Below are positions 1 to 1,347 of a stretch of DNA of 3,720 bases, one piece after another; the first letter of the stretch is position 1; each line of letters begins with the position of its first letter. Origin of the DNA: Escherichia coli (GTDB lineage: Bacteria; Pseudomonadota; Gammaproteobacteria; Enterobacterales; Enterobacteriaceae); the NCBI RefSeq assembly GCF_003334335.1, contig NZ_QOWQ01000082.1. One strand, given 5' to 3'. A model generated the notes under the pieces. That model did not search any database and had not been told where the DNA came from. It was given only the letters and a program-made list of their open reading frames with translations. Position numbers and translations under genes: made by a program.

Positions 1-1347
1 ATGCTGGCTGAAACGGACGAGTACATGGCCGGAGGTAAACGACCGGCCCGTGTTTACCGGGTGGTGAACGGTATTGCGGTACTGCCGGTGACCGGCACGC
101 TGGTGCACCGGCTGGGGGGGATGCGGCCATTTTCCGGAATGACTGGCTATGACGGCATTGTCGCCTGTCTTCAGCAGGCAATGGCAGATAGCCAGGTGCG
201 GGGCATACTGCTGGACATTGACAGTCCGGGCGGGCAGGCCGCCGGCGCGTTTGACTGCGCTGACATGATTTACCGCCTCCGGCAGCAGAAGCCGGTTTGG
301 GCACTGTGTAATGACACGGCCTGTTCTGCGGCCATGCTGCTGGCGTCGGCCTGCTCCCGACGGCTGGTTACCCAGACATCCCGTATCGGCTCCATTGGCG
401 TGATGATGAGCCATGTCAGCTATGCCGGTCATCTGGCGCAGGCCGGTGTGGATATCACGCTGATTTACTCAGGGGCGCACAAGGTGGATGGCAATCAGTT
501 TGAAGCGTTGCCGGAAGAGGTTCGCCAGGACATGCAGCAGCGGATTGATGCGGCGCGCCGGATGTTTGCCGAAAAAGTGGCGATGTATACCGGTCTGTCT
601 GTTGATGCAGTCACGGGAACAGAGGCCGCCGTTTTTGAAGGTCAGTCCGGCATTGAGGCCGGGCTGGCGGATGAATTAATCAATGCGTCGGATGCCATCA
701 GTGTGATGGCCACGGCGCTGAACAGTAATGTCAGAGGAGGCACTATGCCGCAATTAACTGCAACGGAAGCCGCCGTGCAGGAGAACCAGCGAGTGATGGG
801 GATCCTGACATGCCAGGAAGCGAAAGGACGTGAACAGCTTGCCACGATGCTGGCAGGGCAACAGGGCATGAGCGTTGAACAGGCCCGGGCGATTCTGGCC
901 GCGGCGGCACCGCAGCAGCCGGTGGCATCCGCGCAGAGTGAAGCCGATCGCATTATGGCGTGTGAAGAAGCGAACGGTCGTGAACAACTGGCGGCAACGC
1001 TGGCGGCGATGCCGGAGATGACGGTGGAAAAAGCCCGCCCGATCCTGGCGGCTGCACCACTGGCGGATGCCGGGCCCTCACTTCGTGATCAGATCATGGC
1101 CCTGGATGAGGCAAAAGGGGCAGAAGCGCAGGCTGAAAAACTGGCGGCCTGCCCGGGAATGACCGTGGAGAACGCCCGGGCTGTGCTGGCTGCGGGATCA
1201 GGTAAGGCCGAACCGGTCTCTGCATCCACAACCGCCCTGTTTGAACATTTCATGGCGAATCATTCACCGGCAGCGGTGCGGGGTGGCGTGTCACAGACGT
1301 CAGCAGACGGTGATGCGGACGTGAAAATGCTCATGGCCATGCCATGA
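1..1347 (+). CDS. C: Prohead (head maturation) protease, gpC-like, ClpP/S49 fold, with C-terminal scaffold (Nu3-like) domain; probably 5'-truncated by the window edge
   Basis: Frame-1 ORF of 448 aa ending at TGA 1345-1347. By eye it aligns with lambda gpC from about its residue 70 onward (window RPARVYRVVNGIAVLPVTGTLV vs lambda RQARSYQVMNGIAVLPVSGTLV; GILLDIDSPGG vs GILLDMDTPGG; KPVWALCNDTACSAAMLLASACSRRLVTQTSRIGSIGVMM vs KPVWALANDMNCSAGQLLASAASRRLVTQTARTGSIGVMM). The likely nucleophile Ser is the S in ACSAA, codon 325-327, equivalent to lambda gpC Ser166 as I recall it. About 70 N-terminal residues of lambda gpC have no counterpart, so the ATG at 1 is probably internal. Confidence 0.85.
   Translation: MLAETDEYMAGGKRPARVYRVVNGIAVLPVTGTLVHRLGGMRPFSGMTGYDGIVACLQQAMADSQVRGILLDIDSPGGQAAGAFDCADMIYRLRQQKPVWALCNDTACSAAMLLASACSRRLVTQTSRIGSIGVMMSHVSYAGHLAQAGVDITLIYSGAHKVDGNQFEALPEEVRQDMQQRIDAARRMFAEKVAMYTGLSVDAVTGTEAAVFEGQSGIEAGLADELINASDAISVMATALNSNVRGGTMPQLTATEAAVQENQRVMGILTCQEAKGREQLATMLAGQQGMSVEQARAILAAAAPQQPVASAQSEADRIMACEEANGREQLAATLAAMPEMTVEKARPILAAAPLADAGPSLRDQIMALDEAKGAEAQAEKLAACPGMTVENARAVLAAGSGKAEPVSASTTALFEHFMANHSPAAVRGGVSQTSADGDADVKMLMAMP
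745..1347 (+). CDS. nu3: Scaffolding protein, Nu3-like, from an internal in-frame start within the 3' part of the protease gene
   Basis: In-frame ATG at 745-747 preceded by a strong Shine-Dalgarno AGAGGAGG (733-740). The context SNVRGG-T-MPQLTA parallels lambda LSGGR-MTKETQ, where Nu3 starts inside C. Downstream sequence resembles lambda Nu3 (RVMGILTCQEAKGREQ vs RIMGILNCEEAHGREE; GMTVEKARPILAAAP vs GMTVKTARRILAAAP). Predicted product is about 200 aa, longer than lambda Nu3, because of the repeat expansion. Confidence 0.6.
   Translation: MPQLTATEAAVQENQRVMGILTCQEAKGREQLATMLAGQQGMSVEQARAILAAAAPQQPVASAQSEADRIMACEEANGREQLAATLAAMPEMTVEKARPILAAAPLADAGPSLRDQIMALDEAKGAEAQAEKLAACPGMTVENARAVLAAGSGKAEPVSASTTALFEHFMANHSPAAVRGGVSQTSADGDADVKMLMAMP
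781..1197 (+). repeat. Three tandem in-frame copies of a ~40-45-aa scaffold motif (R1 781-912, R2 937-1056, R3 1081-1197), diverged at DNA level
   Basis: Protein repeats: R1 ENQRVMGILTCQEAKGREQLATMLAGQQGMSVEQARAILAAAAP; R2 SEADRIMACEEANGREQLAATLAAMPEMTVEKARPILAAAP; R3 LRDQIMALDEAKGAEAQAEKLAACPGMTVENARAVLAAG. Shared pattern: [R/D]-[V/I/Q]-[I/M]-[G/A]-[I/C/L]-x-x-x-E-A-[K/N]-G-[R/A]-E-x(6-10)-[G/E/P]-M-[S/T]-V-E-x-A-R-x-[I/V]-L-A-A. Confidence 0.65.

What the first reader, a model, noticed from the sequence alone, without database searches (positions are those of the whole stretch)
1..30. Protease gene probably continues upstream of the window
The window begins with ATG in frame, but by eye the similarity to lambda gpC only starts around its residue 70. 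The true start of the protease gene, and the upstream portal gene expected from lambdoid synteny, are therefore probably outside the window. Treating position 1 as the real start would give a protease missing its N-terminal region.
Basis: inference. Interest (0 to 1): 0.15.

Follow-up and report, generated by a model that had tools for sequence, protein, structure and literature searches.

The report
Window edge cuts phage protease gene
The window starts 53 codons inside a well-known phage 21/lambda-type head-maturation protease gene, so the ATG at position 1 is an internal methionine and the finding is a correct but ordinary window-edge effect.

Summary
The window is part of a phage 21-type (lambdoid) head operon. 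It holds the protease/scaffold gene, then the D-like, E-like, FI and FII genes and the start of Z. It is 99.7% identical to E. coli prophages and 97% identical to phage 21 over the protease region.

Window residue 12 aligns with lambda gpC residue 69.

The interpretation also holds in every relative examined:
- In 19 of 19 related loci the frame stays open for 65 codons upstream of the base matching window position 1.
- The annotated start is a GTG 159 nt upstream, preceded by GAGGAG. It gives a 501-aa protein.
- The 53 extra residues align with lambda gpC residues 6-60 and vary mainly at third codon positions.
- The portal gene sits immediately upstream and overlaps the protease start by 11 nt.
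- No Shine-Dalgarno sequence precedes position 1.
- The window's exact 448 residues, joined to that N-terminus, occur as a called 501-aa gene on a public contig.

The S49 catalytic domain and the nested Nu3-like scaffold gene lie entirely inside the window. Only a conserved N-terminal extension is cut off.

I could not retrieve the window's own source contig, so a real truncation there is not formally excluded. Nothing here is novel.

The parts
1..1347 (+). 3' part (codons 54-501 plus stop) of a phage 21 gene 5 / lambda C-type S49 head-maturation protease-scaffold gene. The first 159 nt (53 codons) lie outside the window.
1..3 (+). ATG encoding internal Met54 of the 501-aa protein, not a start codon. 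No SD motif occurs in the 20 nt upstream in relatives.
277..720 (+). Peptidase_S49 (Pfam PF01343) catalytic domain, window residues 93-240 (full-length 146-293). It is complete within the window.
   Evidence: SppA structures align to full-length residues 77-290
325..327 (+). Putative catalytic Ser (window residue 109, full-length 162). It aligns with lambda gpC Ser166 and with the serine in the 'AASGG' motif of B. subtilis SppA.
   Evidence: The catalytic role is from knowledge of the S49 family and was not tested here.
481..483 (+). Putative general-base Lys (window residue 161, full-length 214). It aligns with lambda gpC Lys218 and with the SppA position that I recall as K199 (Ala in the crystallised mutant).
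   Evidence: The K199A identity is from memory.
745..1347 (+). Nested in-frame scaffold gene (phage 21 gene 6 / lambda Nu3 equivalent, 200 aa), with SD GAGGAGG at 734-740.
   Evidence: Annotation; SD; phrog_8399 head scaffolding protein
1384..1731 (+). Head decoration protein gene (shp / lambda D-like). Given as context.
1789..2817 (+). Major capsid protein gene (lambda E-like). Given as context.
2869..3252 (+). FI-like DNA packaging protein gene. Given as context.
3245..3598 (+). FII-like head-tail joining protein gene. Given as context.
3613..3720 (+). 5' part of the Z-like tail completion gene, cut by the right-hand window edge.

Best explanation
The window boundary falls inside the head-maturation protease gene of a phage 21-type lambdoid prophage of E. 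coli. The real gene starts at a GTG 159 nt upstream of window position 1, behind a GAGGAG ribosome-binding site. That start overlaps the last 11 nt of the portal gene, which probably allows translational coupling. The gene encodes a 501-aa protein with three parts. The first is an N-terminal extension of about 75 residues, of which 53 are outside the window. The second is an SppA/ClpP-like S49 serine protease domain with a Ser-Lys dyad. The third is a C-terminal scaffold region that is also translated on its own from an internal start at window 745, like Nu3 of lambda. The ATG at position 1 simply encodes Met54. By analogy with lambda gpC, the shared C-terminal scaffold sequence would carry the protease into the procapsid, where it would digest the scaffold and itself. 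That step is inferred from lambda literature and was not tested here.
For: 1) Identity of the locus. The window is 99.7% identical to E. coli prophages and about 97% identical to phage 21 in the protease region.
2) Annotation. Three independent records (RefSeq PGAP, M81255 from 1993, OL657228) all place the protease start 159 nt upstream, give 501 aa, and show a portal gene overlapping it.
3) Direct sequence check. In 19 of 19 related loci the frame is open for 65 codons upstream. GTG sits at -159 with GAGGAG 10 nt before it, and there is no SD before position 1.
4) Similarity to lambda. The extra 53 residues align with lambda gpC residues 6-60, including the block RNLxHIxxxAFNEPLxLEPAYARVFFCAL. 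Lambda C also starts with GTG.
5) Coding-type evolution. In the block against lambda, 13 of 21 nucleotide differences are at third codon positions, with 8 synonymous and 5 amino-acid changes. Among 17 phage 21-type loci, 6 of 7 variable sites in -159..-1 are at third positions. The other two frames carry stops.
6) An exact natural example. A 501-aa protein made of that N-terminus plus the window's exact 448 residues is a called gene on ENA contig L005.
7) Family profile. The window ORF starts at phrog_53 position 55, the full-length protein at position 4.
8) Population. 1944 of 2034 E. coli records with any match carry DNA continuous across the junction (at least 80% of a 319-nt query centred on it). 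The one partial match listed is an 83%-identity hit to the conserved N-terminal block of a more distant prophage.
Against: The window's own source contig was not found: there was no 100% match in complete E. coli genomes, phage records, IMG/VR or GTDB species representatives. The upstream sequence is therefore inferred from relatives. Starting exactly on an in-frame ATG has only about a 2% chance per position. That could mean the window was cut at a gene-caller start, as would happen if the source gene were really truncated. No protein-level evidence for the GTG start, such as N-terminal sequencing, was available to me.
Confidence: 0.93

Rival explanations
1. In the source genome the gene is really truncated at or near position 1, for example in a defective prophage with a deletion or an insertion junction. 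The ATG at position 1 would then be the first usable start of a 448-aa remnant.
For: The window begins exactly on an in-frame ATG, which only 1.9% of positions in this frame would give. The source contig could not be retrieved to exclude this. Damaged versions of this gene do exist, e.g. a split 278 + 200 aa version in L009.
Against: Continuity across this point holds in all 19 loci read and in 1944 of 2034 E. coli records. No SD precedes position 1 in any relative. The rest of the window is an intact operon with every ORF open.
Confidence: 0.03
2. The full-length gene exists, but the ATG at position 1 is also used as an internal start and gives a shorter protease isoform, by analogy with the nested Nu3-like start at 745.
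For: Nested starts are a known feature of this gene (window 745). ATG is a strong start codon.
Against: No SD-like motif occurs within 20 nt upstream (TACAGCTTGATGCTCCCGGG/A), whereas the real nested start at 745 has GAGGAGG. No annotation proposes this start. Lambda gpC has Leu, not Met, at the aligned position.
Confidence: 0.02
3. The gene continues upstream, but the true start is the ATG at -57 rather than the GTG at -159, giving a 467-aa protein.
For: An in-frame ATG exists at -57 in all relatives.
Against: There is no SD before it. The block best conserved with lambda gpC (residues 3-31, nt -153 to -67) lies upstream of it and evolves as coding sequence. Lambda C starts at the equivalent GTG. 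Two annotators and PGAP all chose the GTG.
Confidence: 0.02

Closest known systems
Phage 21 gene 5 product (AAA32343.1 in M81255; UMO75420.1 in OL657228), annotated 'capsid protease/scaffolding protein'
   Same: About 97% nucleotide identity over window 1-1400. It has the same gene order, the same nested gene 6 start, the same three 'Tri box' repeats, and the same position relative to the portal and shp genes.
   Different: 41 nucleotide differences in 1-1400. The window lacks the first 159 nt only because of where it was cut. Similarity to phage 21 breaks within FI near window 2991.
Lambda gpC (NP_040584.1), S49 head maturation protease with the nested Nu3 scaffold
   Same: 54% amino-acid identity over the protease domain and the first scaffold repeat. 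Also shared: a GTG start overlapping the end of the portal gene, a nested in-frame scaffold gene, and an N-terminal block conserved in relatives.
   Different: Lambda gpC is 439 aa against 501 aa. Lambda has a single copy of the roughly 40-aa scaffold repeat, whereas this protein has three. Lambda carries a different linker of about 35 aa after the protease domain.
Bacterial signal peptide peptidase A (SppA; PDB 3RST, 4KWB, 3BF0)
   Same: The S49 fold region aligns over full-length residues 77-290 (E = 2.5e-16), including the nucleophile Ser.
   Different: SppA has neither the phage-specific N-terminal extension nor the C-terminal scaffold region. It is a membrane-associated cellular enzyme.

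Membership tests
Lambda gpC / phage 21 gp5-type head maturation protease (PHROG 53; MEROPS/Pfam S49) | Peptidase_S49 domain | tested here: met
   PF01343, E = 2.6e-34, full-length residues 146-293 = window residues 93-240. phrog_53 E = 4.5e-208 for the window ORF.
Lambda gpC / phage 21 gp5-type head maturation protease (PHROG 53; MEROPS/Pfam S49) | Conserved Ser nucleophile and Lys general base | tested here: met
   Window Ser109 and Lys161 align with lambda Ser166 and Lys218 and with the SppA active-site positions. This shows conservation only; activity was not tested.
Lambda gpC / phage 21 gp5-type head maturation protease (PHROG 53; MEROPS/Pfam S49) | In-frame nested scaffold gene sharing the C-terminus (Nu3 / gene 6) | tested here: met
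   ATG at 745 with GAGGAGG SD. Annotated in phage 21. The 200-aa product hits the head scaffolding PHROG 8399.
Lambda gpC / phage 21 gp5-type head maturation protease (PHROG 53; MEROPS/Pfam S49) | Gene lies between the portal gene and the decoration/major capsid genes | tested here: met
   Downstream D-like and E-like genes are in the window. An upstream portal gene (PF05136, phrog_21) is present in all relatives, but it is outside the window itself.
Lambda gpC / phage 21 gp5-type head maturation protease (PHROG 53; MEROPS/Pfam S49) | Full-length N-terminal region (about 55 residues, conserved block AFNEPLxLEPAYARVFFCAL) | tested here: inconclusive
   It is absent from the window because of the cut. 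It is present in 19 of 19 relatives and on a contig encoding the window's exact 448 residues. The source contig itself was not retrievable.
Lambda gpC / phage 21 gp5-type head maturation protease (PHROG 53; MEROPS/Pfam S49) | Proteolytic processing of scaffold and portal during procapsid maturation | not testable with these tools
   This is a biochemical property, known for lambda from the literature (Medina et al. 2010, cited in PMC3224144).

The most novel reading that the evidence does not exclude
The source genome carries a real 5' truncation of the protease gene ending at this ATG, or the ATG is used as an additional internal start. Either would yield a 448-aa protease that lacks the conserved N-terminal extension but keeps the whole S49 domain and the scaffold region.
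Probability: 0.04. Interest if true: 0.15.

Novelty: already known. Interest (0 to 1): 0.03.

Why it matters
It matters only for bookkeeping. Anyone annotating this window should mark the first ORF as 5'-partial (codons 54-501 of a 501-aa protease/scaffold protein). They should not call a 448-aa protease starting at position 1, and they should not expect the portal gene in the window. The catalytic domain and the nested scaffold gene are complete in the window, so functional inferences about them are not affected.

Tried and rejected
1) I tried to find the window's own source contig so as to read its true upstream sequence.
- Whole-window megablast against complete E. coli genomes gave a best match of 99.7%, and against phage records 98.8%.
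- Megablast with the right-hand end gave a best match of 99.2%.
- An exact 145-nt pattern carrying three informative SNPs, run against IMG/VR, gave 7 loci, none above 96.8% identity.
- An exact 70-nt pattern over the window-unique bases near 3608 found nothing in the GTDB representative genomes. In IMG/VR it found one locus of only 92-95% identity.
The source was not found.

2) I considered that the ATG at position 1 could be an internal start. I rejected this for lack of any SD.

3) I considered the ATG at -57 as the true start. I rejected this because the conserved, coding-like block lies upstream of it.

4) I tried to read Medina et al. 2010 on gpC by PubMed id, but the paper is not held. 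A phrase search failed on term length.

5) Tandem Repeats Finder did not detect the three 'Tri box' repeats at DNA level. They are clear at protein level.

Full report
WHAT THE WINDOW IS. The 3720-base window carries one strand of closely packed ORFs: a 448-codon frame from position 1 to 1347, then genes of 115, 342, 127 and 117 codons, and the start of a sixth. Megablast places it in the head operon of phage 21-type lambdoid prophages. About 1,880 complete E. coli records hold the first 1400 bases, with a best identity of 99.7%. Phage 21 itself (M81255, OL657228) is 97.1% identical over that stretch. The annotated gene order in these records is terminase large subunit, W-like, portal, S49 protease/scaffold with a nested scaffold gene, decoration protein, major capsid protein, FI, FII, Z, U. 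This is the lambda order.

CHECK OF THE OBSERVATION. Position 1-3 is ATG and is in frame with the long ORF. BLASTP of the 448-aa translation against lambda gpC (439 aa) gives 54% identity (E = 3e-124), and the alignment begins at window residue 12 = gpC residue 69. A second test does not depend on lambda. Against the PHROG profile of head maturation proteases (phrog_53, 583 positions), the window ORF starts matching at profile position 55, whereas a full-length relative matches from position 4.

CHECK OF THE INTERPRETATION. Three independently annotated records (RefSeq/PGAP for E. coli Ecol_AZ155, the 1993 phage 21 head operon entry, and the 2021 complete phage 21 genome) all start the protease gene 159 nt upstream of the base that aligns with window position 1. 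They give a 501-aa product. The portal gene ends 11 nt after that start, which is 148 nt before window position 1.

I verified this at sequence level. In all 19 related loci that reach upstream, the frame is open for 65 codons before window position 1. A GTG lies at -159, preceded by AAGAGGAGACAACACCAC. The only other in-frame start codons are an ATG at -57 and the ATG at position 1, and neither has an SD-like motif in its upstream 20 nt. These loci are 3 annotated records, 9 contigs from exact-protein look-ups and 7 IMG/VR contigs.

The 53 additional residues (MRRNLSHIIAAAFNEPLLLEPAYARVFFCALGREMGAASLSVPQQQVQLDAPG) align with lambda gpC residues 6-60, and lambda C also begins with GTG. The stretch evolves as coding sequence. 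In the conserved 28-codon block against lambda there are 8 synonymous-only and 5 amino-acid changes, and 13 of 21 nucleotide differences fall at third codon positions. Among 17 phage 21-type loci, 6 of 7 variable sites between -159 and -1 are third positions. The two other frames contain stops.

A hypothetical 501-aa protein, built from this N-terminus plus the window's exact 448 residues, turned out to be a called gene on a public ENA metagenome contig, flanked by portal and decoration genes. At population level, 1944 of the 2034 E. coli records that match a 319-nt query centred on the junction cover at least 80% of it. The one partial match listed is an 83%-identity hit to the conserved N-terminal block in a more distant prophage.

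WHAT IS AND IS NOT MISSING. Pfam places the Peptidase_S49 domain at full-length residues 146-293, which are window residues 93-240. Solved SppA structures align to full-length residues 77-290. The putative Ser/Lys dyad (window Ser109 and Lys161; nt 325-327 and 481-483) aligns with lambda Ser166 and Lys218 and with the SppA active-site positions. The assignment of SppA K199, Ala in the crystallised mutant, is from my memory. The catalytic domain and the whole C-terminal scaffold part, including the nested Nu3/gene 6-like start at 745 with a GAGGAGG SD, are therefore complete in the window. Only a phage-specific N-terminal extension is cut off. SppA has no equivalent of this extension, and I did not find its function.

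MECHANISM (shown versus inferred).
- Shown here: the gene's identity, domain content, conserved active-site residues and nested start, and the upstream continuation in relatives.
- Inferred from lambda literature (PMC3224144, which cites Medina et al. 2010): the protease, the scaffold and the portal form the initiator of procapsid assembly, and the protease then degrades the scaffold.
- Inferred: the 11-nt overlap of the protease start with the portal gene end suggests translational coupling.

RESIDUAL DOUBT. I could not find the window's own source. There was no 100% match in complete E. coli genomes, INPHARED phages, IMG/VR or GTDB representative genomes. The window looks like a mosaic of variants seen separately in L001 and L005. 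Only 1.9% of positions in this frame are in-frame ATGs, so the exact start on ATG could reflect a gene-caller boundary. A real truncation in the source thus cannot be formally excluded, but relatives give no support for it.

VERDICT. The finding is a window-edge artefact in a gene whose full structure has been on record since the phage 21 head operon entry M81255. It is of negligible novelty.

Noticed in passing
window 775-1215 (phage 21 'Tri boxes' map to about 812-915, 952-1062 and 1093-1206): The scaffold part of the protein holds three copies of a roughly 40-aa repeat (…IMxxxEAxGxExxAxxLAxxxxMxVxxARxxLAA…), with 15 invariant columns when aligned with lambda's copy. BLASTP against lambda gpC aligns two of these copies to one and the same gpC segment, so I saw only one copy there. 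The repeats are annotated 'function unknown' in M81255. Tandem Repeats Finder missed them at DNA level.
   Followed up: partly
window 2825-2854: A strong terminator-like hairpin (9-bp stem, 7 G-C pairs, then TCTTTTTT) lies directly after the major capsid gene stop and before the FI SD. Folding gives -22.9 kcal/mol, z = -2.8. Lambda has a different-sequence hairpin at the same place after gene E (L004 4664-4681). The structure thus seems conserved by position rather than by sequence. It may tune the E:FI expression ratio or mRNA stability.
   Followed up: partly
window 1739-1760: A second terminator-like hairpin (7-bp stem, TCAGGCC…GGCCTGA) lies between the decoration protein gene and the major capsid gene.
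   Followed up: no
window 2821-2869: The mechanical ORF list starts the FI frame at GTG 2821 (143 aa). The annotated and SD-supported start is ATG 2869 (AGGAGG, 127 aa). The longer ORF would run through the hairpin and is probably not real.
   Followed up: partly
window about 2991-3190 (central FI): Similarity to phage 21, L005 and several IMG/VR contigs stops at about 2991. In L021 it resumes at 3191. FI lengths are 127 aa here, 124 aa in phage 21 and 122 aa in L005. The acidic middle of FI looks like a mosaic or variable cassette.
   Followed up: no
window 3604-3613: Relative to its closest match (L001) the window has a substitution and a 1-nt deletion just before the Z start codon. The 31-mer around it occurs in none of the 13 loci fetched up to that point. 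Annotated Z lengths vary among relatives (177, 191 or 133+64 aa).
   Followed up: no
L009 2975-4479 (GCA_003864095.1, CP034213.1): In this genome the protease gene is split into a 278-aa S49 part and a separately called 200-aa ORF that equals the nested scaffold protein. This is presumably a frameshift or stop in a decaying prophage.
   Followed up: no
window 1-730 (protein level): The PHROG 'portal protein' profile phrog_21 (1362 positions) matches the protease domain at its positions 504-795 and matches the neighbouring portal at 35-526. Some members of that family are therefore portal-protease fusions.
   Followed up: no
window 750-763 and 984-997, minus strand: OL657228 annotates two 'CII binding site' matches (ttgynnnnnnttgy) on the minus strand inside the scaffold gene. 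These are probably chance matches to a loose pattern, and I did not test them.
   Followed up: no
window 1-3720: The window shares some SNPs with L001-type prophages and others with the L005-type contig (positions 515, 587, 630, 3504, 3541, 3568). This is consistent with recombination among closely related prophages.
   Followed up: no
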